A stretch of DNA of 64,000 nt, from assembly GCA_964291405.2 (NCBI GenBank), contig OZ219926.1:4576001-4640000 (forward strand). The letters are read 5' to 3'. Shown piece by piece: positions 535-63,573 of the stretch. This DNA is from Thermodesulfobacteriota bacterium. Lineage in GTDB: Bacteria; Desulfobacterota; Binatia; Bin18. A program made the translations under genes and the position numbers. The notes under the pieces are model-generated. The model was given only the letters and a program-made list of their open reading frames with translations. It did no database searches and was not told the origin of the DNA. Position 1 is the stretch's first letter; every line of letters starts with the position of its first letter.

Positions 535-882
535 TCACGGCTGACCCGCTGTGATGGCACTGAGCGCGGCAGCCCGAGATTCATACACGGCAATCACTTG
601 GTCAAAGCCGCTGACGGTGATCACCCCACGGATATGGGTCGGGAGGGTACACACCCCAAACCGCTTCCCCGGTTCGTTGAACTTCCGGGCAATAATCAGC
701 CCGACCCGCAGGCCCGGGCTGCTAATGAAAGTCAGCTGCTCAAGGTCCAGGAGCAAGGCCGTGTCTCCCGGCTCAATACCGGATTCCAGGAGCTGATGAA
801 ATGCCTCGGCGGTGCTGCCGTCGATACGTCCGATGACCGTGGCAATCAACACTCCGTCTTGCCGTTCCCATTGAATATCCAT
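535..882 (-). CDS. STAS-domain anti-sigma factor antagonist (orphan RsbV/SpoIIAA-like)
   Basis: GRIDG, LLLDLEQLTFISSPGLR phospho-Ser motif, SGFD; 115 aa. Confidence 0.9.
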   Translation of the reverse strand: MDIQWERQDGVLIATVIGRIDGSTAEAFHQLLESGIEPGDTALLLDLEQLTFISSPGLRVGLIIARKFNEPGKRFGVCTLPTHIRGVITVSGFDQVIAVYESRAAALSAITAGQP

Positions 883-50993: not shown

Positions 50994-52235
50994 TCAGGCC
51001 GAAGCCGGAGCGGGCTGGGCGTCCAGTGCAGGGGCAGGCTCAAACTCTGCTCCGACGTGTCTGCGCACATAGGGAAAGACTTCGCCGGCCAGCAGTTCCA
51101 TATTCTTGCGGGTCAGATGATCGGGTAGGCTGCCGAACTGCGGTAGGGCAAGAATATGTCCGACCTTGAACTCCGCTACGTATTTGAGGAGTTGTTCCCG
51201 TACCGTCTGCGGACTGCCAATCAGGACCGAGCCGCCCGCTTCGATATCATCCCAATTCTTGGCATGGCCGAGTTGCCAGTTGCTCTCCGAGGCATGGCCG
51301 CTGCCCGGATCGTTGAGTTCCTGGAGACGCTGGAGCGATCGGAGCGAGGTGTAGCCCGGAGGCATCCAGGTTCGGCCCTTACCGGCAAAGCCTTTGAGCA
51401 GCTTGTCAATGAAATACCAGATATGTTCTTCCGCTTCTTCTCGTGCCTTCTGGTCGGTTTCCGCCACATACATGGGAACCAGCCAGCCCAGCATTTCCGG
51501 GTGATAGGGAGACGAGCCAACCCGCGCCACGGTCTCTTGAAAGAAGGCCGCATTCCGACGAAAAGCCTCAACGTGCGAGTAGGTCAGGGCCGCATAAATA
51601 AGCCCTTTCTGGGCGACGAACTCCATGGTTTCAATACTACCCACCCCGGGAATCCACACGGGCGGGTGCGGGGACTGTACGGGTCGTGGCCAGGTGTTGA
51701 CGTATTGGAGCGGAAAATGTTTGCCCTCCCAGGAGAACGGGCCTGGGTCGGTCCAGGCTTTGAGAATGAGCTCGGTGGCTTCGCGGAAGCGTTCTCGGGC
51801 ATAGGTCGGATTCTTGCTGTACGAATAGTACTCGGGGCCACCGCCGACGACAAAGCCGCAGTCAAATCTCCCCCGGAACATATTGTCGAGCATGGCAAAT
51901 TCTTCGGCGACTTTGAGCGGGACATCGTAGAGCGGCAGGCCGTTGCCCAGCACCATGACACGGGCCTGTGTGATCCGCTGTGACAGCGCGGCGGCGATCA
52001 AATTGGGCGAAGGCATAATACCATAGGCATTCTGGTGATGCTCATTGATGACCACCCCGTCGAAGCCCAGCGTATCGGCATAGGCGAGCTGATCGATATA
52101 CTGATGATAGACCTCCGGGCCACGCTCGGGGTCAAACAGGCTGTTTGAACACGTGACCCAAGCCGTGTCGTATTGCTCGGTAAAATTCTCGGGCAGATGT
52201 GGCCACGGCATGAGATGAAACATCCAGAATTTCAT
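50994..52235 (-). CDS. LLM-class (luciferase-like) flavin/deazaflavin-dependent oxidoreductase
   Basis: LGFDGVVINEHH, MPSPNL, VAEEFAMLD, ERFREA, WPRPVQSPHPPVWIPG, IGSPQTVRE. Confidence 0.95.
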   Translation of the reverse strand: MKFWMFHLMPWPHLPENFTEQYDTAWVTCSNSLFDPERGPEVYHQYIDQLAYADTLGFDGVVINEHHQNAYGIMPSPNLIAAALSQRITQARVMVLGNGLPLYDVPLKVAEEFAMLDNMFRGRFDCGFVVGGGPEYYSYSKNPTYARERFREATELILKAWTDPGPFSWEGKHFPLQYVNTWPRPVQSPHPPVWIPGVGSIETMEFVAQKGLIYAALTYSHVEAFRRNAAFFQETVARVGSSPYHPEMLGWLVPMYVAETDQKAREEAEEHIWYFIDKLLKGFAGKGRTWMPPGYTSLRSLQRLQELNDPGSGHASESNWQLGHAKNWDDIEAGGSVLIGSPQTVREQLLKYVAEFKVGHILALPQFGSLPDHLTRKNMELLAGEVFPYVRRHVGAEFEPAPALDAQPAPASA

Positions 52236-52336
52236 AGGCTTTCCCTTTGCGCAGTGAGTATCCGCCTCTGACTACCACAGATAGTCGCAGGAGCGCAAAG
52301 GCGGGCGCAGGGCGGAGCACCAGCGGGAAGAGCGGG

Positions 52337-54625
52337 TCACCCTACTTCGGCGGGTGTTTCGTGGTCCGTATCCTGGGGTGGTTCGAGCGGGAGGATCACC
52401 CGCATCTCGGTGAAGACGCCCACCTCGGTGTCGAGATGGATGGAACCACCGTGGCGGGTGAGGATGTCTGTGATGAGCGACAGGCCAAGCCCGGTCCCCT
52501 CGCCCGGCTTCTTCGTGGTCACGAAGGGTTCGAAGATCCGTTCGCGCAGTTCTTCCGGAATACCGGGGCCGTTGTCGCGGATGTCGAACTCGGCGTGATC
52601 CTCCAGACGACGGCTGGCGATACGCAGTTCCGGCGCAAAGCCCCCGTCCGAGTTTAGGCGTTTTTCATCGAGGGCCTGGCAGGCATTCGTGACAAGGTTG
52701 AGGAACACCCGGCCGATATCTTGGGGAACAACTTCGAGCAGGCCCATTGCCGGGTCGAGGTCTTGCGTCAGCGTCATATTGAAGTCCGAATTATGGGCGC
52801 GCACCGCGTGATAAGAGAGGTCTACGTATTGCTTCAACAGGGCGTTGACATCGGTCTCCCGCCAATTCCCCGGCCCGCTGCGGGAGTGTTCGAGCATGCT
52901 CCGCACAATGCCGTCGGCGCGTTGGCTATGCTCCTTGACCTTCTGGAGGTTCAGCCTGAGGTCGGAGAGGATAGGGGTGATTTCTTCAGACAGCTCGACC
53001 TCTCCCGTTTTCGCCTCCTCCATGACTTCCTCGATCTCATCAACCAACTCGACGGACACCTCGGAGAAGTTGCTCACAAAGTTGAGCGGATTCTTGATTT
53101 CATGGGCCACCCCGGCTGTGAGTTGGCCGAGCGAGGCGAGTTTTTGCTCGGCGACAATCTGTTCCTGCGCCTGCTCGAGATGTTCCAAGGTCTGTTCAAG
53201 GGTGTGATTCTTCGCGTCCAGCTCTTCAGCCAGCTTCTCGACCAGGTTCAACCGCTGCACTTCCAGGGCGTAGCGTCGAAACACTTCCAGGGCGTTGGCC
53301 ATATCCGTCACTTCGTCATTGCCCTTCACCTCAACCGGCACTTCCAGGTCGCCGCCGGCCATGGAGCGCATGGCTGTGGCTAGCCCGACCAGGCGGCGGA
53401 TCATATAGCGTCCCACAAATAACCAGCCGAGGAGGAGGGCGCCCGAGATGCTCAGGACGTTGAGGACTCCGAGGATCAACCGCCCGGTCTGGGCCGCAGA
53501 CTGGGCAGCGTTGCTGGATTCGACCGCCTCAGCGTTGATCTCGGTAACCAAGGTGTTCACCTCGGTCAGGAGCAGGGCGGAAGCCTCGCGGCCTTTTGCC
53601 AGCGCTGCCTGCTCCTGCTCCAGGCGCAGCAGGGTTTCTTCGCGCAGGGGGATGATCCCGGTATCGACCACCGCACTGGCCAGCGAGGGAAGGGCTTCTT
53701 CGCGCAAGGGGGCGCTCCCTTCATTAGTCTCCCCCATCTGGGCTAGGCGCTCCAGGTCGGTCCCAAGCAGGCTGTCAGGGGTCCGCGCCGACAGCCGCTC
53801 ATAGGCGCGCCGGAAGTTCTGCACAGTACTGCGGAAGCGCTCGCGGAGGGGCGGAAGCAGGCCCCGGTCAGACAGGACCAAGGCATTGCTCAACAGGAGC
53901 ACGGCGAGGTTGGCCTGGTGGTTCAGGCTCGTCAGGTCTCGGGAGTAGGCGAGTTCGGTTTCGGAGGCGCGCTCATTGATCGGGCTCGGCTGGTCTTGTA
54001 GGCGGCGCAGCCCTTCCACCAGATAGAATTCCTGGTCGTCGATCAGGGTCACGATGTGTTGTTCGATGCGTCGGTTCGTCTCGGCGAGTTCCAGATTGAG
54101 TCCTTCCAGCGTCTGGGAGATGACAAGGCGGCGGGCGGCCGACTGTTGGATGAGTTCCAGGTGGATACTCAGTTCGGCGAGGTGGTCTTCGATCAGCCGG
54201 GTCCGCTCACCAAAGGCGGTCTGGGAGGAGAGTTCCTGGATGAGAGTGCTGAGGGCAGACTGTTCTCTGGCCAACTCTTCGGCCACTGTCCCGTGCTCCT
54301 GGAGCGAAGAGGCAGCAATGAGGCGGAGGGCGCCGTTCACCACAACCGAACTCTGGCGCGCCGCGTCGACCGCACTACTCAGGTTGGGGATGCTGGATTC
54401 TGTCAGCCGAGAGCCATACTGGACGATCTGGTGAAAGGAGAAATAGGCCACCAAGCTGGCACTCAGGGTCAGCAGGACGCCGCCCAGCAGACCGGTATAG
54501 AGTTGTGGCCCGATCCCGAGACGGAACCTGTGTCCCTTTTCTGGTTCCGCTCCCTCTGACGAGGGAGAAGGGCGTAGGGCGAGGGCTTTTCCAGGGGCGG
54601 TGACGGGGCGGTCGTCGTGGCTCAT
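52337..54625 (-). CDS. membrane sensor histidine kinase (helical TorS-like periplasmic domain, HAMP, HisKA, HATPase)
   Basis: 2 TMs, MAGGDL...DEVTDMANALEVFR, KLASLGQLTAGVAHEIKNPLNF, NLVTNA, DNGPGI, GTGLGL. Confidence 0.95.
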   Translation of the reverse strand: MSHDDRPVTAPGKALALRPSPSSEGAEPEKGHRFRLGIGPQLYTGLLGGVLLTLSASLVAYFSFHQIVQYGSRLTESSIPNLSSAVDAARQSSVVVNGALRLIAASSLQEHGTVAEELAREQSALSTLIQELSSQTAFGERTRLIEDHLAELSIHLELIQQSAARRLVISQTLEGLNLELAETNRRIEQHIVTLIDDQEFYLVEGLRRLQDQPSPINERASETELAYSRDLTSLNHQANLAVLLLSNALVLSDRGLLPPLRERFRSTVQNFRRAYERLSARTPDSLLGTDLERLAQMGETNEGSAPLREEALPSLASAVVDTGIIPLREETLLRLEQEQAALAKGREASALLLTEVNTLVTEINAEAVESSNAAQSAAQTGRLILGVLNVLSISGALLLGWLFVGRYMIRRLVGLATAMRSMAGGDLEVPVEVKGNDEVTDMANALEVFRRYALEVQRLNLVEKLAEELDAKNHTLEQTLEHLEQAQEQIVAEQKLASLGQLTAGVAHEIKNPLNFVSNFSEVSVELVDEIEEVMEEAKTGEVELSEEITPILSDLRLNLQKVKEHSQRADGIVRSMLEHSRSGPGNWRETDVNALLKQYVDLSYHAVRAHNSDFNMTLTQDLDPAMGLLEVVPQDIGRVFLNLVTNACQALDEKRLNSDGGFAPELRIASRRLEDHAEFDIRDNGPGIPEELRERIFEPFVTTKKPGEGTGLGLSLITDILTRHGGSIHLDTEVGVFTEMRVILPLEPPQDTDHETPAEVG

Positions 54626-55791
54626 TGCGACACCATTTTCTGGACTGGCTGAAAGCGTCCCTGACTATCAATGATGGTCAGGTAGACCTGGTCGGAGCCC
54701 TGATTGTCGGCCGGACCATAGCGCAGCAGGAAGCCGTCGAGGTCGATGGTCTCAGCCATCCGTAGCGCGTCCAGAAATCCTGCTCGGGTCGGGTTGGGTC
54801 CGGCCAGACGGAGGCCCTCTGCCACGAGGCGACCCGCTAAATACCCTTCCAGTGATACGAAGCCCGGTGGACTCTCCGGGTCCACCGCGGCCAGGGCTTG
54901 CTGATAGTGCGCGACAACCGGGAGGCTGACGTCGGTGGGGAAGGGAACAACCTGGGTGACATAGACCCCAGCCCCGTCAGAACCGAGTTCTCTCGCCAAA
55001 GCAGAACTCCCCACAAAGGAAATATTGATGAAATACGGGTTGAAGTCGAGCCGCCTCGCCCAGCGGATCAGGGCGGCTGCGGGTCTGTAGGCCCCGATGA
55101 TGACAATCGCCTCGGGCCGGGAGCGGCGCAGATCGAGCAGCGCGACTTTGACTGCCTCGGTGTTGCGCGGATAGTCCGCTTCCGCGACGAGGGGCAGGTT
55201 AAGACGGGCAACGGCGCGGCGTACGCCCGTTAGCCCGGCGCGTCCATAAGAATCGTTCTGGTAGAGAATACCGATCCGCTGCACACCCAGGTCGGCGGTC
55301 AGACGGGCTACCATCTCCTCGGTTTCCTGGTAGTACGAGGCCCGCATATTGAGCACATTGGGCCGGAGCTGGGCATCGCGCAGGAACTCCGCCCCGGTAA
55401 AGGGCGCGAGATAGGGCACACCGGCCTCGGTGGCAATCGGCTGGGCGGCCAGAGATGTCGGAGTCCCAACCGCACCAACCAGGGCGAAGACGTTGCGCTG
55501 GATGAGTTCACGGGTGTTGGCGATGGCCGCTTCGGGCTCATAGGCATCGTCCAGGGAATCCAGGACGAGGCGCTGGCCGTGTATCCCACCCTGCTGGTTG
55601 ATCGTCTCGAAGGCGGCCAACAGGCCGACGCGCATTCCTTGGCCCAGGGCGCGGGCCGGGCCGCTCAGGGCTGCGGACTGGCCGAAGACCAACTCTTCGG
55701 CGCCGACGGGCTGCATGGACTGCAACATCACGCCGGCCCAGGCAACGAGACCCAGGGTGGCGCGAAAAAGGGCGGGGATAGAGCGCATCAT
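54622..55791 (-). CDS. periplasmic LivJ-like (branched-chain amino acid type) solute-binding protein, no transporter adjacent
   Basis: Signal peptide, GQSAALSGP, LDDAYEP, GAVGTP, RASY, YQNDSYG, SLEGY. Confidence 0.93.
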   Translation of the reverse strand: MMRSIPALFRATLGLVAWAGVMLQSMQPVGAEELVFGQSAALSGPARALGQGMRVGLLAAFETINQQGGIHGQRLVLDSLDDAYEPEAAIANTRELIQRNVFALVGAVGTPTSLAAQPIATEAGVPYLAPFTGAEFLRDAQLRPNVLNMRASYYQETEEMVARLTADLGVQRIGILYQNDSYGRAGLTGVRRAVARLNLPLVAEADYPRNTEAVKVALLDLRRSRPEAIVIIGAYRPAAALIRWARRLDFNPYFINISFVGSSALARELGSDGAGVYVTQVVPFPTDVSLPVVAHYQQALAAVDPESPPGFVSLEGYLAGRLVAEGLRLAGPNPTRAGFLDALRMAETIDLDGFLLRYGPADNQGSDQVYLTIIDSQGRFQPVQKMVSQ

Positions 55792-56978
55792 GTCCCGTCG
55801 ACAGTGGAGGAAGAAAGCAGGGCGCCGAAGCGCATGGCGACACAGGTAATATCATCCGATTGCGGCGCATCTCCGGCAAAGGCCTGCACTTCATCGACGA
55901 TCGTGGTCACAATATCACGGGCAGGTACCTGCCCAAGGCTGGCAAGTTTTGCATCGAGGCGCTCCTCGCCAAACTCCTCATCATTGACGTTCTGGGCCTC
56001 GGTAATGCCATCCGTGTACAGGAAAAGGGTATCCCCAGGGGCAAGCCGAACCTCGCCGTTGTGATATTCGTGTTCAGGGGCGATCCCGAGGACCAGATTC
56101 TCCGTGGTTGGTAGCACCTCGACCCGGGAATCGCTCCGTACCAAACGGGGCGGGTTATGACCACCGTTGCTGTAACGGAAGCTTCCGTCCCGCAGATCAA
56201 ACACCCCATAGAAAAGGGTAATGAAAATACAGGTTTCGTTGTCCTCGGCCAGCAGATCATTCACGAGGCCCAGACAGTCAGCGGGTGACGGGGAATCTCT
56301 GGCCGTTCCTTTGAGGAGGGTCCGCGTCATGAGGGTAAACAGCGCCGCCGGAATCCCCTTGCCTGAGACATCCGCGATGACCAGACCGAGCAGTTCATTG
56401 CTCAGGGGAAAAAAATCGTAGAAGTCCCCGCCGACCTCCCGGGCCGGGATCATGAGTGCCTGGACATCGTGGGTCTCGCTGCTCGGGACCTCCTTGGGCA
56501 GGGCGGACATTTGCACCTGCTGGGCCACATCGAGTTCCCGCTTGAGGACGACGAGCCGGTCCCGTGCCTCCTGGGCGGTTTCTAGGGCGCGGATATGGCT
56601 GAGCGTCTTTTCAATCGTGATGTCGAGATCGTCAAAATTGATCGGCTTAGTCACAAAATCGAAGGCGCCCCGGTTCATGGCGGTGCGGATGTTCTCCATG
56701 TCACCGTAGGCGGAAACGATGACGGCCTGGACGTCGGGTTTGGTGTCTTCGAGTTTGCTCAGTAGCGCAAGCCCGTCCATCACGGGCATGTTGATATCCG
56801 AGAGCACCAGGTGAATGTCCGGGTTCTCGGCGAGCTTTTCGAGCGCTTCCTGGCCATTCCGGGCAAAGACGAAATCGAATTCGCCTTTGCGGATACGACG
56901 GCGGAATTTCTGACGGATAAGCAACTCAAGGTCTTCTTCGTCGTCTACCACAAGGAGTCGGACGGGTGATGTTGTCAA
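55788..56978 (-). CDS. response-regulator receiver fused to PP2C/SpoIIE phosphatase (RsbU/RsbY-like)
   Basis: LVVDDE, SDINMPVMDG, DFVTKP; VGGDFYD, ADVSGKG, GHNPP, YTDGITEA, SDDIT. Confidence 0.96.
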   Translation of the reverse strand: MTTSPVRLLVVDDEEDLELLIRQKFRRRIRKGEFDFVFARNGQEALEKLAENPDIHLVLSDINMPVMDGLALLSKLEDTKPDVQAVIVSAYGDMENIRTAMNRGAFDFVTKPINFDDLDITIEKTLSHIRALETAQEARDRLVVLKRELDVAQQVQMSALPKEVPSSETHDVQALMIPAREVGGDFYDFFPLSNELLGLVIADVSGKGIPAALFTLMTRTLLKGTARDSPSPADCLGLVNDLLAEDNETCIFITLFYGVFDLRDGSFRYSNGGHNPPRLVRSDSRVEVLPTTENLVLGIAPEHEYHNGEVRLAPGDTLFLYTDGITEAQNVNDEEFGEERLDAKLASLGQVPARDIVTTIVDEVQAFAGDAPQSDDITCVAMRFGALLSSSTVDGT

Positions 56979-57007
56979 GGTCTGGTCCCTCTCTTCGGAG
57001 TCGGTGT

Positions 57008-57358
57008 CTACAAGGCCGCCAGCGCTTCGCTCCGGCTCTGACAGATCGTTAGGATGTTGGTGAATCCGCTGATCTCAAAGACATGGGCGATGTGTTCGGC
57101 CAGCCCGCAGAACAGGGCTTTTCCCCCTTCCGCCTGCATCCGTCGGGCCGTCACCAGAAGCACGCGTAAGCCAGCACTACTGATGTAGTTCAGGTCCTCA
57201 AAATCGAAGACGAGTGTCTTCTCGCCCGCATCGAGCTGTTCCCGAACAGCGCTTTCTAGCACCCCCACATTGCTCCCGTCCACTCGTCCCACCGGGCAGA
57301 CGATAACGGCCTTTTCACTGCGTTCGGTTTGCACGGACAGCGCACTTTCATTCGTCAT
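57008..57358 (-). CDS. STAS anti-sigma factor antagonist (RsbV-like)
   Basis: GRVDG, FDFEDLNYISSAGLRVLL, FEISGF. Confidence 0.94.
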   Translation of the reverse strand: MTNESALSVQTERSEKAVIVCPVGRVDGSNVGVLESAVREQLDAGEKTLVFDFEDLNYISSAGLRVLLVTARRMQAEGGKALFCGLAEHIAHVFEISGFTNILTICQSRSEALAAL

Positions 57359-57839
57359 TGGTTTGCCCTCCAATCATGCTTTTCAGGGTAATACGATTGC
57401 GCCCGTCAATGCGCTCATAGGTGCTACTGTCGGTCAGATTTTTTACAAAAAAGATACCGAGCCCGCCGATGGGACGATCCGCAAGTCCCATATCGGTATC
57501 CGGCTCTGGAGCCTCCTCAAACGGGTTATACGCCGCACCGTTGTCCTCGAGTTGAGCCACAACGGTGTCTTGGTCAACGAATAGGCGGAGTCGAAGCTCC
57601 GGTTCGGCGAGATCGGGCAGGGCATAGCACACGCTGTTCGTTACCAGTTCGTCCAGAACGAGGTTCAGGCGACCCTGAAAGTCCCGACTGAGCGCGTGGG
57701 CAGCCCCGAATTCCCGGAGAGTCTGGGCGAGCATGGGAAGGGCGGACAGGTCCGAGGCGAGGGAGATATCAATGCTTGGTTGGGGTTCGCGGGACGACAT
57801 CGGTTTCACCATGATACGCGCGGTGCGTCCGCCGGACAT
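57348..57839 (-). CDS. anti-sigma factor Ser/Thr kinase (RsbW-like)
   Basis: LVLDELVTNSVCYA, EDNGAAYNP, RPIGGLGIFFVK; start abuts the alpha-E stop (or 57812). Confidence 0.93.
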   Translation of the reverse strand: MSGGRTARIMVKPMSSREPQPSIDISLASDLSALPMLAQTLREFGAAHALSRDFQGRLNLVLDELVTNSVCYALPDLAEPELRLRLFVDQDTVVAQLEDNGAAYNPFEEAPEPDTDMGLADRPIGGLGIFFVKNLTDSSTYERIDGRNRITLKSMIGGQTNDE

Positions 57840-58823
57840 TCAGGAAGCAGCCTGCGCTTCGGTTGGATAATAGACATAGGTCCGCTCGAGGGCCTCGTGA
57901 AAATTCCGACATAATATAACGAGATCGGCAAGGTCATACCAGCCTCCTCCACCATCCGTCAGATTAATCATGTGGTGGGAGAGGGCCGAATCCAGACGCC
58001 CGACGATTTCATAGGGCTCCGCCGGTAGGCGTCCACGGACCGGTGGGTCAATCGCCTCCAGGCTCGTCCGGAGCCGATTGACGGCGAAACGCAGTGAATA
58101 GGACAACTCGGCGTCGTACACCAGAAAGCTCAGCACCTTGTCTCTCCCGATCTGGGCACCGTGGAGTTGGCAGTAGGCTTCAAAGGCATTGCAGTCCCGA
58201 AGGAGGCCCGCCCAGTCACTATCCTCCTCGGCCGTGTCCCTGACGTTTGCACAATGCGACTCAAGGAGGGAGCCGACGAGTTGCGCCCGCTCGATGAAGC
58301 GGCCGACGCGCATAAAGTGCCAACCTGCGTCCCGGCGCATGGAACTCGCGCACACGCCGTCGAAGAGTTGTACCGTCTCGACAATGTCGCGGTACAGCAT
58401 AACGGGCTCCCTGGACCAGATGTCCACCAAGTTGGTGTCTCGTAAGCGCAGGTAGGCGCGGTTGAGGCTCGACCAAATCCCGTTGCTGATGGCGTCGCGT
58501 ACCTGGCGGGCGTTTTCCCGAGCCGCGGTCAGGCCGAAGATAATAGAGGCGGGATTGGTGGTATCGAAGGTCAGATAGTCGGTCAGGGTATAGCCGTCGG
58601 CGAAAAAGAAATCGTCCTCGTCCTCCGGGCCGCCGTAGATATCGGCGCCTGGAGGACGCGCATCAAGACTGCTGAAGAGCCGTCGCCAGCCATTGGCGAT
58701 CTCATGGACCGGGCTGGAGGGGAGGTGTTCGAGCTGTAACTCCAGGAGACGCGCGGTGTGTTCCACTCGTTCCAAGTAGCGGTTCATCCAGTAGAGAGAA
58801 TCTGCGACACGGGCGAGTATCAC
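57840..58823 (-). CDS. alpha-E domain protein (DUF403)
   Basis: LARVADSLYWMNRYLERVEHTARLL, ARENARQVR, GWHFMRVGRFIERA; both ER motifs present. Confidence 0.95.
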   Translation of the reverse strand: MILARVADSLYWMNRYLERVEHTARLLELQLEHLPSSPVHEIANGWRRLFSSLDARPPGADIYGGPEDEDDFFFADGYTLTDYLTFDTTNPASIIFGLTAARENARQVRDAISNGIWSSLNRAYLRLRDTNLVDIWSREPVMLYRDIVETVQLFDGVCASSMRRDAGWHFMRVGRFIERAQLVGSLLESHCANVRDTAEEDSDWAGLLRDCNAFEAYCQLHGAQIGRDKVLSFLVYDAELSYSLRFAVNRLRTSLEAIDPPVRGRLPAEPYEIVGRLDSALSHHMINLTDGGGGWYDLADLVILCRNFHEALERTYVYYPTEAQAAS

Positions 58824-60319
58824 GGCACATCCTCCTCAATGATCCAGGCGTCTTTGGAGCCGCCTCCTTGACTTGAATTCACCACCAGGCTGCCCTTGCG
58901 CAAAGCGACCCGGCACAGCCCGCCGGGCACGATCCGGGTCTCCTCCCCGTGTAGTACGAAGGGTCTGAGGTCAACGTGGCGCGCCTCAAGTCGTCCGTCG
59001 ATAAGGCACGGGGCACGCGATAAGTCTAGGACGGGCTGAGAGATATAATTCTCGGGCCGATCCCGGAGTGTGGCGGCAAATGCTTCCCGCTCTTCCTGGC
59101 TGGCGTGCGGTCCCACCAACATGCCGTACCCGCCAGACTCGCCCACCGCCTTGACCACCAGATTTTCAAGATGCTCAAGCGTGTAGGCCAGCCCCTCGGG
59201 TTCTCGGCAGAGAAAGGTTTCGACGTTGTCGAGAATCGGCTCCTGGTCGAGGTAATAGCGGATCATGCGGGGCACATACGAATACACTGCCTTATCGTCC
59301 GCAACGCCTGTGCCGGGTGCGTTGGCCAGCGCGAGGTTTCCGGCCCGATAGACCTCAAACAGACCCGGAACGCCTAGACGGGAATCCGGGCGGAAGGCTT
59401 TGGGGTCGATAAAGTCATCGTCGAGTCGCCGATAGAGAACGTCTACGGGACGCAACCCCTGGACCGTGCGCATATATAGCTGTGTCCCTCGCACGAGCAG
59501 GTCGTCGCCCGTGACGAGTTCAATGCCCATTTCTCGTGCCAGAAAGGCATGTTCGTAGTAGGCCGAGTTATACACACCGGGTGTCAGCAGGGCGATGCTC
59601 GGCTCTTCTCCCTTTCGAGGCGAGAGGGAGCGCAGGACACGCAGGAGTTCCTGGCCGTAGTGGTCGACCGCCCGGACGTGGTAGCGGCGAAAAACCCGCG
59701 GAAAGGAGCGCCGGATCGCCTCCCGGCAGGCGAGCATATACGACACCCCGGAAGGCACCCGGAGATTGTCCTCTAGCACCATGAAGCCGTCTGCGGTCCG
59801 TACGATGTCACTCCCGCACACCGACACATAGGCTCCGAGCGGCACCTGGACCCCCTCCATCTCGGGGCGGTAGTTCGGACAGCCCTGCACTAGGTCGCGC
59901 GGTATAGTACCGTCGCCAAGGATGTGCCCTTTGCCGTAGACATCGGCGAGAAAGAGGTTCAGCGCCTGGACACGCTGAATGAGTCCCCGCTCGATATGCT
60001 CCCACTCTCGGGCGAGCACGAGGCGGGGGACGCAATCGATGGGGATGACCCGCTCGATAGACTCCTCGTCCCCGTACACGGTGAAGGTGATACCCTCGTG
60101 GAGAAATGAGCGGGTCACGCGCTCCTGAAGTCGCGTAACCTCCTCCTGGGACATCCGCTCCATTTCGTTGATAAGGAACCGGTAGTGAGCACGGGGTTGC
60201 TCTTCGGACTCAAAGGTCTCGTCGAAAAACTGAGCGTCAAGCTCGTAGTGCCCAAAGAGCGAGGGTGCAGGGTCGCCGTCTCGACTGTGCCGCGCTTCAG
60301 GCAAGTCACGCGAAGTCAT
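58820..60319 (-). CDS. circularly permuted type 2 ATP-grasp protein (putative peptide/glutamate ligase)
   Basis: GITFTVY, GLIQRV.ALN.FL.DVY, VLEDNLRVPSGVSY, NSAYYEH, YRRLDDDFIDP, NAPGTGVADDK, VVNSSQGGGSKD. Confidence 0.96.
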   Translation of the reverse strand: MTSRDLPEARHSRDGDPAPSLFGHYELDAQFFDETFESEEQPRAHYRFLINEMERMSQEEVTRLQERVTRSFLHEGITFTVYGDEESIERVIPIDCVPRLVLAREWEHIERGLIQRVQALNLFLADVYGKGHILGDGTIPRDLVQGCPNYRPEMEGVQVPLGAYVSVCGSDIVRTADGFMVLEDNLRVPSGVSYMLACREAIRRSFPRVFRRYHVRAVDHYGQELLRVLRSLSPRKGEEPSIALLTPGVYNSAYYEHAFLAREMGIELVTGDDLLVRGTQLYMRTVQGLRPVDVLYRRLDDDFIDPKAFRPDSRLGVPGLFEVYRAGNLALANAPGTGVADDKAVYSYVPRMIRYYLDQEPILDNVETFLCREPEGLAYTLEHLENLVVKAVGESGGYGMLVGPHASQEEREAFAATLRDRPENYISQPVLDLSRAPCLIDGRLEARHVDLRPFVLHGEETRIVPGGLCRVALRKGSLVVNSSQGGGSKDAWIIEEDVP

Positions 60320-60398
60320 GGTGATAATGCCACCCTTTCCGCCATAGTTGGCCAGATAGTCGGGATTATCGTCAAGTTCGACCGAGCGATCAGGATAG

Positions 60399-60427
60399 AT
60401 ACTAACACCCGACCTCTCAGTCTACAA
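60399..60427 (-). promoter_or_regulatory. candidate sigma70 extended -10 promoter for the ATP-grasp operon
   Basis: TTGTAG-N17-TAGTAT with TGn before -10 and an A-tract upstream. Confidence 0.45.
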
Positions 60428-60489
60428 CTTTTTTTCTGATGACCCTGGCCGCTCTCCATCCGGGGGCAGGGAACAGCGTGTGACCGCTG

Positions 60490-61242
60490 CTAGCGAAACA
60501 GATCGGCGTCCGCCGGGCGTTTCAGGGATTCGCTCCCAACGTCGGCTGGTTTGAAGCGATAGCCGCGTATCAGAACGGCGGGCATGGCGGCACTCTTTTC
60601 CATCAGCAGGCCCGCGGCCGCAGCGAGTTCGTCAGCCACGGCAATGACGGTATGATGCAGTTCGCGGCCCTGAAGGTCTTCCTCGCCGCGCTGATCGTCG
60701 AGCGGGTCAAGGCCGGAAACGCCGAGCGCGAATTCGACCAGGCCGTCGCGCCACGGCCGGCCAAACGTGTCGGTAATAATGACGCCAATAGCGATGTGAC
60801 GCTGCCGCTCAATAGTCAGCCGCAGATGCCGAGCCGAAGCGTCCGGGTCTTTAGGCAGGAGAATGACGACATCGTCGGCAATGGTATTGGAGGCGTCAAC
60901 GCCGGAGTTGGCACACACCCAGCCGTGTTTACTCTCGGTGATGACCACGCCGTTTTTCATGCGGACAATCCGACTGCTCTCGGTCAGTACGACCTCGACT
61001 ATGCGCGGGTCTTTCTCCCACATGTCCGCAATTTGTATGGCAAACGGCGACGGGGTGACGGTCCGCAGGTCAACGACTGCGCCTTCGGCTTTGGAGACAA
61101 TCTTTTGGCAGAGGACCAAAATGTCTCCATCCTTGAGGCCGACTTTGGCGTCATCAATGGCTTTGAGCAGAATGGCGGGCAGGTCATCACCGGGCTTGAT
61201 CTGAGGAACACCAGGAATGGGGATAATGGCAATCGTACTCAT
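60490..61242 (-). CDS. cofE: coenzyme F420-0:gamma-glutamyl ligase (single domain)
   Basis: PGDDL, QKIVSKAEG, CANSGVDASN, LLPKDPDASA, TDTFGRPWRDG, AVADELA. Confidence 0.96.
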   Translation of the reverse strand: MSTIAIIPIPGVPQIKPGDDLPAILLKAIDDAKVGLKDGDILVLCQKIVSKAEGAVVDLRTVTPSPFAIQIADMWEKDPRIVEVVLTESSRIVRMKNGVVITESKHGWVCANSGVDASNTIADDVVILLPKDPDASARHLRLTIERQRHIAIGVIITDTFGRPWRDGLVEFALGVSGLDPLDDQRGEEDLQGRELHHTVIAVADELAAAAGLLMEKSAAMPAVLIRGYRFKPADVGSESLKRPADADLFR

Positions 61243-61270
61243 GAAAAATCCTCAAGGTCCTCCGCGTGAC

Positions 61271-62251
61271 TCATGATAGAGCTTTGGGGCGTTTCTGATG
61301 GGCAAATTCAATAACCGTTCGGGCTAGCGCAATCGACTTGTCCATATCGCTCATGACGGTATCGGTGACAATAACAGCCAGCCCCATTTTTTCCAGGCGT
61401 TCGCGCGGTGTTGGGTCGTGTTCCACATCCTGCTGGTCGAGGATAAAGGTGTCCACAAAATCTTGATATAGCTTGGCGACCCCAACCGACGAGACTTCGA
61501 TGTCTAGGCCTTCAAGCATCCGGTCGGCTGGCCCTTTAATGGGCTTGCCTGCGACCAGGGGACTGATTGCGACCACGGGAGTAGTGGTCTCTCGAAGGGC
61601 CTCGCGCACACCGGGTAAGGAAAGAATGGGACCAATACTGACAATGGGATTGCTCGGCGGGAGGATAACCAGATCGGCGCCGCGAATGGCCTCGACGACT
61701 CCGGGTGAGGCCTGGGCCGTTTCAACGCCGCTGAATTCCACCTTTGAGACCTGCCCCTCACTGCGCTGTTTCACGAAATATTCCTGAAAGGGCAGGGGGC
61801 CCGCCTCGGTATGCACAACGGTCCGAACGCGCTCATTGCTCATCGGCAGCACGGTGGCTTCAATGCCCCACTTGTGAGTAATGGCCGTAGTCACCTGGCT
61901 GAGGGTCTGCCCCTGGCGCAGCGCTTGGGTTCGAAACAGGTGGGTTGCAAGATCGGCATCACCCAGGCCAAACCAGGTATCGGCATAATAGCGCCCGAGC
62001 GCCTCAAGGCAGCGATGGGTTTCCTGGGGTAAGCCCCAGCCTTTTTCAGAGTCAACGGCATTGGCCAGAGTATAAGTGACCGTGTCCAGGTCAGGAGAAA
62101 CCGACAGGCCAAAGAATTCTTCGTCGTCGCCGGTATTGACGATCACACTCAGGTTTGTCTCCGGCACCACCCGCACGACCCCGCGCAGGAATCGCGCGGC
62201 GCCCACACCGCCGGCCAGGGCGGTGATGCGTAAGGAGGTCAGGCTAGACAC
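61271..62251 (-). CDS. cofD: 2-phospho-L-lactate/PEP transferase
   Basis: LAGGVGAARFL, VNTGDD, SPDLDTV, WFGLGDAD, FQEYFV, PSNPIVSIGPIL, GPAD. Confidence 0.97.
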   Translation of the reverse strand: MSSLTSLRITALAGGVGAARFLRGVVRVVPETNLSVIVNTGDDEEFFGLSVSPDLDTVTYTLANAVDSEKGWGLPQETHRCLEALGRYYADTWFGLGDADLATHLFRTQALRQGQTLSQVTTAITHKWGIEATVLPMSNERVRTVVHTEAGPLPFQEYFVKQRSEGQVSKVEFSGVETAQASPGVVEAIRGADLVILPPSNPIVSIGPILSLPGVREALRETTTPVVAISPLVAGKPIKGPADRMLEGLDIEVSSVGVAKLYQDFVDTFILDQQDVEHDPTPRERLEKMGLAVIVTDTVMSDMDKSIALARTVIEFAHQKRPKALS

Positions 62252-62286
62252 GGTCGAACGGGCGGAGTTGTCCCTCCGCTGTCAGA

Positions 62287-63573
62287 TTAGTGAGCGGTTT
62301 CTTGTTTGTCCCGCTCGAATGGGTGAACGTAACGGAACTGGTCCGAGGCAGCGAGCTTCCGATAGGAGCCGAATTGCTCGTCGGCATTCTCAACCATATC
62401 CAAAGGACTGACTTTGTCGTCCGTTCCGTTAAAAACTGTCCGCAGCTTATAGGTAGTTGAACGCTCGGCCGGGGTGCGTCCCACGTCGCGGATCAGACGC
62501 CGCAACTCTTTGGGCGGAACCAACTGGCCGTACTGCGCACCGGCTGAGGTCGAAATGCTCTCGTTGATGAGCGTTCCTCCAAGATCGTTCGCGCCCACCG
62601 TCAGCAAGTGTTGTGACAGCTTGGGACCCTCTTTGACCCAGGAGGACTGAATATTACGGAAGGTGGGACCCAGCATCAGCCGGGCAACCGCGTGCATCTT
62701 AATGACCTCTACACCGGTTGCGCCCTGGCGGACGCCTTTGACGAGTTTGCGCTGATACATGGGCGCTTCCTGGTGGATGAGTGACAGCGGTACAAACTCG
62801 GTAAACCCGCCGGTCTCCTTTTGAATGTCGCGCAGCAAGTTCATATGTTTGACCCAATGTTCTTGTGTCTCGATATGGCCATACATAATGGTTGAGGTGG
62901 TCGGGATACCGAGGCTGTGGGCCGAGGTAATGACCTCGATCCACTGTTTGGTCGAAATACGCCCAGGGGCGATGATATCGCGGATGTCCTGGTCCAGAAT
63001 TTCCGCTGAGGTGCCGGGCAGGGTATCTAAACCCGCGTTTTTGAGCTCTCGCACATACTCGAGAATGGAGACCCCCGAGCGGAGCGAGCCGTACAAGACT
63101 TCTTCGGGCGAAAACGCGTGGATGTGGAGGTCCGGGAAGGCCTTTTTCACGGCTCGGGTCAGATCGATATAGAGGCTGCCGTTCATCTTGGGTGGCAGGC
63201 CGGCCTGCATGCAGACTTCGGTTGCGCCCATGTCAACTGCTTCTTGGGCTCGCCGAACGATCTCCTCTTCGGGAAGGAAATAGCCTTCTTCCTCGCGGTA
63301 CTCCCGGCTGAACGCGCAGAACGTGCAGTGTTTAATGCACACATTGGTGAAGTTGATATTCCGGTTGACGACATAGGTCACCACCTCACCGACCTGGCGG
63401 CGACGCATTTCGTCGGCGACCAGACAGACGGCGTGAAAATCGATGCCATTGGTCTGGCAGAGCTGGAGGCCGTCTTTCCAGGAGAGTTCTTCCTCTTCCA
63501 AGGCGCGATGAAGAATCGTGCGAATCTGCGGATCAATGTGATTGAGAATGCCGGCAATGTAATCGGTTGCCAC
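62287..63573 (-). CDS. cofH: FO synthase subunit CofH (radical SAM)
   Basis: VTYVVNRNINFTNVCIKHCTFCAF, HAFSPEE, PGTSAEILD, NIQSSWVK, NDLGGTLINESIS. Confidence 0.96.
   Translation of the reverse strand: MATDYIAGILNHIDPQIRTILHRALEEEELSWKDGLQLCQTNGIDFHAVCLVADEMRRRQVGEVVTYVVNRNINFTNVCIKHCTFCAFSREYREEEGYFLPEEEIVRRAQEAVDMGATEVCMQAGLPPKMNGSLYIDLTRAVKKAFPDLHIHAFSPEEVLYGSLRSGVSILEYVRELKNAGLDTLPGTSAEILDQDIRDIIAPGRISTKQWIEVITSAHSLGIPTTSTIMYGHIETQEHWVKHMNLLRDIQKETGGFTEFVPLSLIHQEAPMYQRKLVKGVRQGATGVEVIKMHAVARLMLGPTFRNIQSSWVKEGPKLSQHLLTVGANDLGGTLINESISTSAGAQYGQLVPPKELRRLIRDVGRTPAERSTTYKLRTVFNGTDDKVSPLDMVENADEQFGSYRKLAASDQFRYVHPFERDKQETAH

What the first reader, a model, noticed from the sequence alone, without database searches (positions are those of the whole stretch)
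52337..60319. Seven-gene operon linking a CP-ATP-grasp/alpha-E peptide-ligase module to a sensor-driven partner switch
Seen: seven co-oriented genes with overlapping or near-abutting junctions (largest gap 29 bp): CP-ATP-grasp, alpha-E, RsbW-like kinase, STAS, REC-PP2C, LivJ-like binding protein, histidine kinase. Catalytic motifs look intact. Established: CP-ATP-grasp plus alpha-E normally sit with a transglutaminase-like protein and often the Anbu proteasome-like peptidase, as a predicted peptide-tagging system, and Rsb-type switches normally control a sigma factor. Neither transglutaminase/Anbu nor a sigma factor is in this operon. Inference: an external amino acid or amide is sensed by the binding protein and kinase, passed to the PP2C/STAS/kinase switch, and the output (or the modification target) is the ligase module rather than a sigma factor. 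I do not know of this architecture being described.
Basis: partly seen in the sequence, partly recalled or inferred. Interest (0 to 1): 0.85.

Follow-up and report, generated by a model that had tools for sequence, protein, structure and literature searches.

The report
Nitrogen-linked partner switch fused to peptide-ligase operon
A seven-gene operon in an uncultured Binatia bacterium joins a little-understood peptide-ligase pair to a sensor-driven phosphorylation switch, and relatives of this switch recur beside ammonium-uptake and glutamine-synthesis genes, which suggests an undescribed way of controlling nitrogen acquisition.

Summary
Seven minus-strand genes (52337-60319) encode CP-ATP-grasp, alpha-E, an RsbW-like kinase, STAS, REC-PP2C, a LivJ-like binding protein and a TorS-like histidine kinase, with tight junctions.

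The juxtaposition is not unique. 32 of 78 alpha-E loci carry all seven genes in the same order, under Binatota, Tectimicrobiota and Gammaproteobacteria labels and with unrelated flanks. Their ATP-grasps form one clade, whose nearest relatives have a transglutaminase after alpha-E.

The same switch also occurs divergent from, or convergent with, ATP-grasp/alpha-E(/transglutaminase/GlnA/Amt) operons, or with an ammonium transporter alone. None of these loci contains glnK.

No sigma gene lies in any locus. 0 of 6 genomes searched has a SigB/F/G-class sigma above the family cut-off.

Best reading: a nitrogen-status partner switch acting on nitrogen-acquisition proteins, here the ligase pair. That output is inferred, not shown; one complex prediction gave no answer. 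RNA-library contigs bridge the alpha-E/kinase junction, which is weak support for co-transcription.

No description was found in print. I rate it a new variant of known kinds.

The parts
58820..60319 (-). Circularly permuted ATP-grasp amidoligase (499 aa), first gene of the operon
   Evidence: PF14403 E 1.6e-159 over the full profile. 3n6x 'putative glutathionylspermidine synthase' E 3.3e-160. It belongs to a supported clade of cassette-linked ATP-grasps (SH-aLRT 99).
57840..58823 (-). Alpha-E protein (327 aa); overlaps the ATP-grasp stop by 4 nt
   Evidence: PF04168 E 4.5e-67. The ER motifs are invariant. No solved relative by sequence or by fold (model pLDDT 72.4). Fusions to ATP-grasp and to transglutaminase exist elsewhere.
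57348..57839 (-). RsbW-like serine kinase (HATPase_c_2, 163 aa by longest ORF; true start possibly Met10 or Met14)
   Evidence: PF13581 E 1.1e-17. Weak NCBIfam matches to RsbA/RsbW, below cut-off. ATP-binding residues are invariant in 22 orthologues.
57008..57373 (-). Single-domain STAS phosphoprotein (121 aa; true start probably Met6)
   Evidence: PF01740 E 9.4e-17 and TIGR00377 69 bits, above cut-off. The conserved YISSAGLR serine is present in all arrangement types.
55788..56978 (-). Response-regulator receiver fused to a PP2C (SpoIIE-type) phosphatase (396 aa)
   Evidence: PF00072 + PF07228. It is the only SpoIIE match in the genome. Best NCBIfam match is Pseudomonas-type RssB, below cut-off.
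54622..55791 (-). Secreted LivJ-like (Peripla_BP_6) ligand-binding protein (389 aa)
   Evidence: PF13458 E 5.3e-58. Hydrophobic N-terminal segment at residues 5-23. 4kv7 E 2.4e-70. No ABC permease or ATPase genes are adjacent.
52337..54625 (-). Membrane sensor histidine kinase (762 aa): TM1, ~315-aa periplasmic TorS-like part, TM2, HAMP, HisKA, HATPase_c
   Evidence: Pfam. TM segments at 42-64 and 380-405. TIGR02956 TorS positions 14-431 match residues 50-482, E 2.7e-37, below the family cut-off.
60399..60427 (-). Candidate promoter (TTGTAG, 17 nt, TAGTAT) in the 170-nt gap after cofE; low confidence
   Evidence: Read from the sequence and conserved in four same-genus loci. It falls below the threshold of the promoter scan. 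An RNA-library contig of a ~92%-identical relative ends 45 nt, plus 25 unaligned nt, upstream of the ATG. No sigma-54-like site lies in the last 160 nt in any of the 18 loci.

Best explanation
The seven genes form one horizontally shared operon. It is a sub-lineage of the CP-ATP-grasp/alpha-E ligase system in which the usual transglutaminase gene after alpha-E has been replaced by a dedicated signalling chain.

Proposed flow. A periplasmic LivJ-like protein binds a nitrogen compound (amino acid, amide or similar; inferred). It docks on the TorS-like periplasmic part of the histidine kinase (inferred by analogy with TorT/TorS). The kinase phosphorylates the receiver of the REC-PP2C phosphatase (inferred from invariable adjacency). 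The phosphatase removes the phosphate that the RsbW-like kinase puts on the conserved serine of the STAS protein (inferred from family knowledge; motifs shown intact).

The switch is dedicated to nitrogen acquisition. Its relatives sit next to the ligase pair, a glnK-less ammonium transporter, glutamine synthetase and transglutaminase (shown by gene neighbourhoods).

The most likely output is protein-protein control rather than release of a sigma factor. Unphosphorylated STAS, or alternatively the freed kinase, would bind the ATP-grasp/alpha-E ligase here, and Amt in sister arrangements, and so turn it on or off. I lean towards STAS as the effector because STAS is the component that stays with the targets when the genes are rearranged. 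This last step is inference.
For: Conservation. All seven genes are in the same order in 32 of 78 alpha-E loci: 23 Binatia/Binatota, 5 Entotheonella/Tectimicrobiota and 4 Gammaproteobacteria/Pseudomonadales by record title. No eighth gene is shared by all flanks. Junctions are tight: alpha-E>kinase is at most 35 nt in 30 of 32, and ATP-grasp>alpha-E and kinase>STAS in 32 of 32.

Phylogeny. Cassette ATP-grasps form one clade (SH-aLRT 99). Of the four nearest outgroup loci, L040, L042 and L044 have a transglutaminase beside alpha-E and L041 does not. 29 of the 44 non-cassette loci have a transglutaminase, against 0 of 34 cassette-type loci.

Other arrangements of the same switch:
- Divergent from ATP-grasp/alpha-E in two same-genus genomes that lack the seven-gene form (L095, L115).
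- Convergent with ATP-grasp-alpha-E-transglutaminase-GlnA-Amt in another Binatia family. Of 18 loci, 13 have alpha-E, 17 Amt and 16 GlnA.
- Followed by Amt on the same strand in 4 of 4 gammaproteobacterial cassettes.
- With Amt but no ligase (L120), and as an amt-STAS pair (L096, L098).
- With a HAMP-PP2C membrane phosphatase in place of binding protein, HK and REC, yet still beside Amt (L193) or ATP-grasp-alpha-E-Amt (L137).
- The remaining more distant RsbW/STAS loci of 6 kb or more (about 33 of 42) show none of these neighbours.

No PII/glnK. None was found by tblastn in any of these loci.

L020. This locus keeps ATP-grasp, alpha-E and an intact STAS but has lost the kinase, PP2C, binding protein and HK. 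The same chromosome carries a second switch elsewhere (L096).

Sigma factors. No sigma gene lies in any locus. No SigB/F/G-family match above cut-off was found in 6 of 6 genomes. This is the only PP2C of the genome.

Independent link of the ligase system to nitrogen. The canonical DUF404/407-DUF403-transglutaminase cluster is 6- to 9.4-fold down in a B. cenocepacia ntrC mutant (PMC5491218, passages read). Anbu itself is reported up in nitrogen-limited P. putida (PMC5666114, passage read). In this genome the canonical copies lie between glnK-amt and a nirB-like gene.

RNA. In an RNA-Seq metatranscriptome a 1980-nt contig (~91% identical) covers 56249-58227, running from PP2C through STAS and the kinase into alpha-E.
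Against: No direct evidence exists for any protein contact or for the direction of control.

The association may have arisen once. ATP-grasps of all three main arrangements fall in one clade, together with two Dehalococcoidia loci that lack the switch. The arrangements are therefore not independent replicates.

The switch occurs without a ligase nearby: L094, L096, L098, L119, L120 and 4 type-C loci. The ligase cannot be its only partner.

Convergent or divergent placement next to target operons is also what a transcriptional regulator would show.

Sigma factors of other classes were not excluded. Two sigma-70-family matches below the SigB/F/G cut-off exist in this genome.

Five of the 32 loci have truncated genes, either frameshifts or assembly errors.

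The RNA contigs come from assemblies of RNA libraries that can contain DNA, and a contig across genes does not prove one transcript.

The STAS-as-effector lean rests on three loci.
Confidence: 0.5

Rival explanations
1. Transcriptional output. The RsbW-like kinase is an anti-sigma factor, or sequesters another transcription regulator encoded elsewhere. The switch would then control transcription of nitrogen-acquisition operons, including its own operon, as sigma-B controls rsbV-rsbW-sigB.
For: This is the textbook role of HATPase_c_2/STAS/PP2C sets (established knowledge). In types B and C the switch sits beside, but not within, the ligase/glnA/amt operons, as regulators often do. The genome has sigma-70-family genes that match the SigB/F/G model below its cut-off.
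Against: No sigma or DNA-binding gene is conserved in any of the ~60 switch loci examined. 0 of 6 genomes has a SigB/F/G-class sigma above cut-off. The cassette crosses three phylum labels without carrying a sigma gene. The promoters upstream look sigma-70-like and differ between lineages.
Confidence: 0.27
2. The ligase acts on the switch. ATP-grasp/alpha-E would add an amino acid or peptide to STAS, the kinase or the phosphatase (as RimK does to S6), giving the switch a second, metabolic input instead of being its output.
For: The family was proposed as a protein- or peptide-modifying ligase (Iyer et al. 2009, as cited in PMC6376114 and PMC5666114, passages read). The loss of transglutaminase coincides with the gain of the switch genes. 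L020 keeps the ligase together with STAS.
Against: No acidic or otherwise conserved C-terminal tail is shared by STAS or kinase orthologues across phyla. The switch works beside Amt without any ligase in several loci.
Confidence: 0.1
3. Two unrelated modules that merely travel together: a ligase pair of unknown role, and a sensory partner switch with a target elsewhere. The adjacency would be inherited from one ancestral accident.
For: All linked ATP-grasps belong to one clade, so one event could explain the linkage. The complex prediction gave no support (this is not evidence either way).
Against: The linkage survives three gene orders and replacement of the input module. Start/stop overlaps are kept in 30-32 of 32 loci. 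The unit has moved between phylum labels with unrelated flanks.
Confidence: 0.08

Closest known systems
CP-ATP-grasp / alpha-E / transglutaminase (/Anbu) operon (Iyer et al. 2009; the Anbu operon of Yersinia and Pseudomonas)
   Same: The first two genes are the same, in the same order and with overlapping junctions. Both have a link to nitrogen: the canonical operon is NtrC/sigma-54 dependent in B. cenocepacia.
   Different: There is no transglutaminase and no Anbu. Their place after alpha-E is taken by five signalling genes. The alpha-E is strongly diverged, 33-39% identical to the alpha-E of the sister arrangements, whereas the ATP-grasp is 63-71% identical. Upstream sequences look sigma-70-like, not sigma-54-like.
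Bacillus cereus RsbK-RsbY-RsbV-RsbW-sigma B pathway (recalled, not checked in a call)
   Same: A histidine kinase feeds a REC-PP2C phosphatase, which acts on a STAS/RsbW pair.
   Different: Here the kinase is not a hybrid and has a periplasmic TorS-like part with a separate binding protein. No sigma B-type gene is in the operon or, above cut-off, in the genome.
Partner switches with non-sigma outputs: Pseudomonas HptB-HsbR-HsbA and RssB/RssC (PMC6482189, listing and abstract only), Vibrio SypE-SypA (PMC3610818, PMC10120452, abstracts only), Synechocystis IcfG cluster (recalled)
   Same: A phospho-STAS protein acts as a switchable binding partner. The REC-PP2C resembles Pseudomonas RssB (below cut-off).
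   Different: Those systems control flagella, biofilm, RpoS or carbon use. None is reported next to an ATP-grasp/alpha-E pair, Amt or GlnA (searches).
TorT/TorS periplasmic binding protein plus sensor kinase
   Same: A separate secreted binding protein is encoded directly upstream of a kinase whose long periplasmic part matches TorS.
   Different: The binding protein is of the LivJ type (Peripla_BP_6), not the TorT type. The kinase has no receiver or Hpt domains. The match to TorS is below the family cut-off.
GlnK (PII)-AmtB control of ammonium uptake (recalled)
   Same: A small signal protein encoded with amt: amt-STAS pairs in L096 and L098, and Amt beside the switch in most sister loci.
   Different: The small protein is a STAS phosphoprotein, not PII. 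No glnK is present in these loci. Binding to Amt is untested.

Membership tests
CP-ATP-grasp/alpha-E/transglutaminase(/Anbu) system | Circularly permuted ATP-grasp ligase | tested here: met
   PF14403 531 bits over the full profile; 3n6x E 3.3e-160
CP-ATP-grasp/alpha-E/transglutaminase(/Anbu) system | Alpha-E gene directly downstream | tested here: met
   PF04168 227 bits, 4-nt overlap
CP-ATP-grasp/alpha-E/transglutaminase(/Anbu) system | Transglutaminase-like gene in the operon | tested here: not met
   No Transglut_core in the seven genes or their flanks. No tblastn hit in the 64-kb window or in any of the 34 cassette-type loci. The only copy in the genome is at C3:1.748 Mb, with a fused paralogue.
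CP-ATP-grasp/alpha-E/transglutaminase(/Anbu) system | Anbu proteasome-like peptidase (present in many, not all) | tested here: not met
   No proteasome-family match in the 15 genes scanned. The rest of the genome was not searched for it.
Rsb/SpoIIA-type partner-switching system | HATPase_c_2 serine kinase with intact ATP-binding boxes | tested here: met
   PF13581; E64, N68, D99 and GGLG invariant in 22 rows
Rsb/SpoIIA-type partner-switching system | Single-domain STAS antagonist with phosphorylatable serine | tested here: met
   TIGR00377 above cut-off; YISSAGLR conserved. Phosphorylation itself is not testable here.
Rsb/SpoIIA-type partner-switching system | PP2C phosphatase | tested here: met
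   PF07228 181 bits; the metal-binding Asp motifs were read in the sequence
Rsb/SpoIIA-type partner-switching system | Cognate sigma factor as target, usually co-encoded | tested here: not met
   None in the operon, in 64 kb of window genes scanned near it, or in ~60 related loci. TIGR02980 had no match above cut-off in 6 of 6 genomes. Other sigma classes were not excluded.
RsbK/RsbY-type (two-component-fed) partner switch | REC-PP2C phosphatase fed by a histidine kinase | tested here: inconclusive
   REC-PP2C and an HK lie in one operon in every type A, B and C locus. Phosphotransfer is not testable. The HK is not a hybrid, unlike RsbK (recalled).
TorT/TorS-type binding-protein-assisted sensor kinase | TorS-like periplasmic sensor part | tested here: inconclusive
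   TIGR02956 E 2.7e-37 over residues 50-482, but 128 bits against a cut-off of 676. No PDB sequence match for the periplasmic part.
TorT/TorS-type binding-protein-assisted sensor kinase | TorT-family binding protein | tested here: not met
   The binding protein is Peripla_BP_6/LivJ-like

The most novel reading that the evidence does not exclude
The STAS/RsbW pair is the core of a phosphorylation-based, PII-independent nitrogen control pathway. A periplasmic nitrogen-compound sensor sets the phosphorylation state of a small STAS protein. That protein then directly gates a glnK-less ammonium transporter and switches an ATP-grasp/alpha-E amidoligase, and perhaps glutamine synthetase. This would run parallel to the GlnK/NtrBC paradigm. 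It would also give the enigmatic ATP-grasp/alpha-E system its first defined regulatory partner, and the whole unit would be spread as a mobile cassette among uncultured marine lineages.
Probability: 0.25. Interest if true: 0.85.

Novelty: new variant of a known kind. Interest (0 to 1): 0.7.

Why it matters
The CP-ATP-grasp/alpha-E(/transglutaminase/Anbu) system is widespread, is induced by nitrogen limitation, and has had no known substrate, product or regulator for more than fifteen years. A lineage in which it is wired to a dedicated sensor and partner switch offers testable handles: candidate binding partners (STAS, kinase), a candidate signal (the ligand of the binding protein) and a physiological frame (Amt, GlnA).

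It would also add a metabolic, non-sigma output to partner switching, and a possible PII-independent way of controlling ammonium uptake.

The cassette is shared by Binatota, Tectimicrobiota and Gammaproteobacteria MAGs. Near-identical pieces occur in RNA libraries labelled sponge metagenome, so it may matter for nitrogen exchange in such communities.

Tried and rejected
Complex prediction of alpha-E (A1) with the RsbW-like kinase (A2) scored 0.00 and 0.01 against a mark of 0.32. The verdict was 'no answer' and the controls were not run. This is not evidence for or against binding. Other pairs (STAS or kinase with ATP-grasp, alpha-E or Amt) could not be tried because the cap is one job.

Alpha-E structure. 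The AF2 model from 22 rows has pLDDT 72.4 and is all-helical. Foldseek against PDB gave 0 matches at E <= 0.001 and a best TM-score of 0.31. PDB sequence search gave 0 matches. The HK periplasmic part also gave 0 matches at E <= 1.

Rosetta-stone search for longer proteins with alpha-E returned 6 proteins: 4 ATP-grasp-alpha-E fusions and 2 alpha-E-transglutaminase fusions. None carried STAS or HATPase_c_2. The tool notes that this is weak evidence.

Riboswitch or RNA element. Rfam gave 0 matches in window 51900-60700 at E <= 1 and 0 at gathering score in 7 related loci.

Defence-system idea. It was prompted by restriction-modification genes inserted upstream in relatives. PADLOC gave 0 matches for all seven proteins, so I rejected it.

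F420 link. cofH, cofD and cofE lie upstream and a luciferase-like monooxygenase lies downstream. This synteny is confined to the own genus and is broken by insertions there, so I rejected it as functional context.

Sigma-54 promoter. No site lies in the last 160 nt before the ATG in any of 18 loci; four loci had weak far-upstream matches with up to 3 mismatches.

The promoter/terminator scan was near chance: 4 promoters against 3.0 +/- 1.8 expected, and 13 terminators against 7.5 +/- 3.4.

The phylum-wide search with REC-PP2C at E <= 1e-20 hit 201 of 401 genomes. These were mostly generic PP2C domains, so the search was uninformative. I replaced it with the class search at 1e-90, which hit 64 of 401.

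Parts of the stretch without RNA-contig cover, and the small word shares of runs X1-X4, are not used as evidence of absence or of habitat.

Literature. The first search was swamped by 'alpha-enolase' and similar terms. Iyer et al. 2009 (PMC3268129) is not held. I therefore could not check whether that paper's neighbourhood figures or supplements already show this architecture.

Full report
WHAT IS THERE. The region 52337-60319 holds seven ORFs, all on the minus strand. In the order of transcription they are:
- a circularly permuted ATP-grasp (58820-60319);
- alpha-E (57840-58823);
- a small HATPase_c_2 kinase of the RsbW type (57348-57839);
- a single-domain STAS protein (57008-57373);
- a receiver-PP2C phosphatase (55788-56978);
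- a Peripla_BP_6 binding protein (54622-55791);
- a HAMP-HisKA-HATPase_c histidine kinase (52337-54625).

Every Pfam assignment is above its cut-off. Junctions are -4, 0, -26, +29, -4 and -4 nt. The catalytic or binding motifs of each protein are present and conserved among orthologues. The binding protein has a signal-peptide-like N-terminus. The kinase has two membrane segments enclosing about 315 residues that match the sensor part of TorS, though below the family cut-off. The arrangement therefore resembles a binding-protein-assisted sensor.

Upstream on the same strand lie cofH, cofD and cofE. Downstream lie a luciferase-like monooxygenase, a hydrolase, FBPase and an aldolase. The closest records are titled Candidatus Binatia MAGs.

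IT IS NOT UNIQUE. A scan of one genome per species with the alpha-E protein returned 78 loci. tblastn with the window's proteins found all seven genes in the same order and strand in 32 of them:
- 23 are titled Binatia/Binatota, 5 Entotheonella/Tectimicrobiota and 4 Gammaproteobacteria/Pseudomonadales;
- all seven genes are full length in 27, and the other 5 have truncations that may be frameshifts or assembly errors;
- one further locus (L019) ends at a contig edge after the phosphatase;
- one (L020) has only ATP-grasp, alpha-E and STAS;
- 44 have ATP-grasp and alpha-E alone.

Outside the own genus the flanks are unrelated: nitrile hydratase, RNase II, a TonB receptor, restriction-modification genes. 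The conserved unit is therefore exactly these seven genes. Junctions stay tight: alpha-E>kinase is at most 35 nt in 30 of 32 loci.

In a maximum-likelihood tree of 72 ATP-grasps the cassette-linked ones form one clade (SH-aLRT 99). I left out nine near-identical Binatia rows and rows under 430 aa. The four gammaproteobacterial rows are sister to the rest. The genome's two other ATP-grasps fall elsewhere.

Of the four nearest outgroup loci (Dehalococcoidia, Rhizomicrobium, Chloroflexia), three have a transglutaminase next to alpha-E and L041 does not. So do 29 of the 44 non-cassette loci. None of the 34 cassette-type loci has one. The signalling genes thus occupy the place of the transglutaminase.

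THE GENOME'S OTHER COPIES. The genome holds two more ATP-grasp/alpha-E sets at C3:1.746-1.753 Mb. One is a fusion followed by a transglutaminase. The other is a pair followed by a 192-aa protein of no family. Both lie about 8 kb from glnK-amt and next to a nirB-like gene. The cassette is therefore an extra, specialised copy and not a remnant of the only one. The cassette's PP2C is the only SpoIIE-type phosphatase in the genome.

THE SAME SWITCH IN OTHER ARRANGEMENTS. A search of 401 genomes of the class with the REC-PP2C (E <= 1e-90) hit 64: 21 of 27 in the own genus, 8 of 8 in a sister genus and 26 of 27 in one other family. I fetched 24 of these 64 loci, choosing the ones that were not close orthologues.

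In the other family, 18 loci carry kinase-STAS-PP2C-binding protein-HK in the cassette's internal order. These are convergent with an operon ATP-grasp-alpha-E-transglutaminase-glutamine synthetase-ammonium transporter. Alpha-E is present in 13 of 18, Amt in 17 and GlnA in 16; one locus has none of them.

Two genomes of the own genus that lack the seven-gene form have PP2C-kinase-binding protein-HK divergent from ATP-grasp-alpha-E, with STAS on the far side (L095, L115). Two further loci of this type have no ligase nearby but have an amt-STAS gene pair (L096, L098). L096 lies on the same chromosome as L020, the locus that kept ligase plus STAS only.

All 4 gammaproteobacterial cassettes are followed by Amt on the same strand.

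A metagenome scan with the kinase alignment added the following:
- one more cassette (L117);
- two convergent forms (L124, L126);
- a switch followed by Amt without a ligase (L120);
- a switch alone (L119);
- two loci in which a HAMP-PP2C membrane phosphatase replaces binding protein, HK and REC, while the kinase/STAS genes still face Amt (L193) or ATP-grasp-alpha-E-Amt (L137).

The remaining loci of 6 kb or more, about 33 of 42 and with kinases 33-47% identical, have none of these neighbours. They serve as a rough background.

No PII/glnK gene was found by tblastn in any switch locus. In the own genome the Amt most like the switch-linked ones (73% identity) also has no glnK or STAS beside it.

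A FastTree of 45 ATP-grasps puts all three main arrangements in one clade, together with two Dehalococcoidia loci that lack the switch. The association may therefore be ancestral and repeatedly rearranged rather than repeatedly invented.

WHAT THE OUTPUT IS NOT SHOWN TO BE. No sigma factor or DNA-binding regulator is conserved in any locus. The SigB/F/G family model has no match above cut-off in the own genome or in five other switch-bearing genomes, while it passes in B. subtilis among the controls. Other sigma classes remain possible.

I do not use it as evidence. Alpha-E has no solved relative by sequence or fold. Natural fusions join alpha-E to ATP-grasp or to transglutaminase only.

EXPRESSION. 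Four RNA-library runs hold parts of the stretch. When laid on it, two runs labelled sponge metagenome give near-identical pieces over STAS and the kinase (56930-57424 and 57123-57552, 2 differences each). One marine RNA-Seq run gives contigs of a ~91%-identical relative:
- one of 1980 nt runs from within the phosphatase gene through STAS and the kinase into alpha-E (56249-58227);
- one crosses the alpha-E/ATP-grasp junction;
- one ends 45 nt, plus 25 unaligned nt, upstream of the ATP-grasp start, near a candidate TTGTAG-17-TAGTAT promoter conserved in the genus.

These are assembled contigs from libraries that may contain DNA. They give weak support for co-transcription and cannot show a single transcript.

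HOW IT MOST LIKELY WORKS. Four things are shown: the parts, their conservation as a unit, their monophyly, and the recurrent neighbourhood of the kinase/STAS pair with Amt, GlnA and ATP-grasp/alpha-E(/transglutaminase).

From established family knowledge, the kinase phosphorylates the STAS serine and the PP2C removes the phosphate. The receiver makes the phosphatase depend on the histidine kinase. The ligand-loaded binding protein modulates that kinase.

From the literature, the canonical ligase operon belongs to the NtrC/sigma-54 nitrogen-limitation regulon in B. cenocepacia (PMC5491218, passages), and Anbu itself is reported up in nitrogen-limited P. putida (PMC5666114, passage). Its biochemical role is unproven; only ATP hydrolysis by the ATP-grasp has been shown (PMC6376114, abstract and passages).

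The remainder is inference. The switch reports external nitrogen-compound supply and acts at the protein level on nitrogen-acquisition proteins: in this operon the ligase pair, in sister loci also a glnK-less Amt. I lean towards STAS as the component that touches the targets, for three reasons. It is paired with amt in L096 and L098. It alone is retained with the ligase in L020. It is separated from the kinase operon in the divergent type. This rests on few loci.

The main rival is a transcriptional output through a sigma factor or regulator encoded elsewhere. A second rival is that the ligase modifies a switch protein.

COMPARISON AND NOVELTY. Each part belongs to a known family. The ligase half fails one defining feature of the canonical system (transglutaminase). 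The switch half fails one defining feature of Rsb systems (a cognate sigma factor). It therefore works like both but is a full member of neither.

Full-text searches found no paper combining partner switching or STAS with ATP-grasp (0 papers). None treated Anbu together with ATP-grasp after 2017 (0 papers). Judged from titles and abstract starts only, none of the listed papers links STAS or partner switching with ammonium transport in bacteria in this sense. The founding paper on the family was not available to me, so prior mention in its figures or supplements cannot be excluded.

I rate it a new variant of known kinds, of good interest. It gives an orphan, widespread ligase system a sensor, a switch and a physiological frame that can be tested directly.

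Noticed in passing
window 535-882 (-): A second single-domain STAS gene (PF01740, E 2.4e-12), 34% identical to the cassette's STAS. No kinase or phosphatase lies beside it, and an SCO1/SenC gene lies at 2212-2886. The genome has five small STAS genes but only one PP2C and two small HATPase_c_2 kinases.
   Followed up: partly
window 60490-63573 (-) and 50994-52235 (-): The F420 biosynthesis genes cofH, cofD and cofE lie directly upstream, and a luciferase-like (possibly F420-dependent) monooxygenase lies directly downstream. The synteny holds only within the genus. In relatives (L007, L011, L016, L018, L020) type I or type ISP restriction-modification genes are inserted between cofE and the cassette, so this spot is variable.
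   Followed up: partly
own genome C3:1735851-1755684 (L085 covers 1742000-1760000): A nitrogen neighbourhood: glnK-amt, a fused ATP-grasp-alpha-E (847 aa) plus transglutaminase, a divergent ATP-grasp + alpha-E + a 192-aa protein with no Pfam or NCBIfam match, and then a nirB-like nitrite/sulfite reductase.
   Followed up: partly
L023, L028, L031, L039 (about 1.2 kb upstream of the cassette): A ~360-440-aa ORF with nitrile hydratase alpha plus beta-N domains lies directly upstream of the cassette in a distant Binatia group. Only the L023 member was scanned in Pfam. It could hint at amides or nitriles as the nitrogen source sensed.
   Followed up: no
L119:15585-17312 (-): A DraG-like ADP-ribosylglycohydrolase (PF03747) is convergent with the histidine kinase of a switch that has neither ligase nor Amt nearby. 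DraG-type enzymes are tied to nitrogen control in other bacteria (recalled). This is a single locus.
   Followed up: no
L034, L037, L038 (upstream, divergent) and L020:12123-14765 (-): A TonB-dependent receptor of one protein cluster lies beside the cassette in three gammaproteobacterial loci and beside the reduced locus L020.
   Followed up: no
L041:11199-12413 (+): In one Dehalococcoidia outgroup locus, alpha-E is followed by ribosomal protein S6 and SSB instead of a transglutaminase. This is curious because S6 is the substrate of the ATP-grasp ligase RimK (recalled). It is probably the ordinary rpsF-ssb operon.
   Followed up: no
upstream of the ATP-grasp start in L023, L024, L025, L028, L039 and window 60320-60332: A TTGACA-17-GATACC-like promoter ends only ~6 nt before the ATG in distant Binatia loci, and a TGnCATTAT extended -10 lies 4 nt before the ATG in the window. 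This could mean leaderless transcripts. The RNA contig that extends further upstream argues for at least one more distal start.
   Followed up: no
own genome C3:2652120-2652545 (L086:6121-6546, -): The only other small HATPase_c_2 kinase of the genome (33% identical) lies between a rhodanese-domain gene and an AAA_21 ATPase gene, without STAS or PP2C neighbours.
   Followed up: partly
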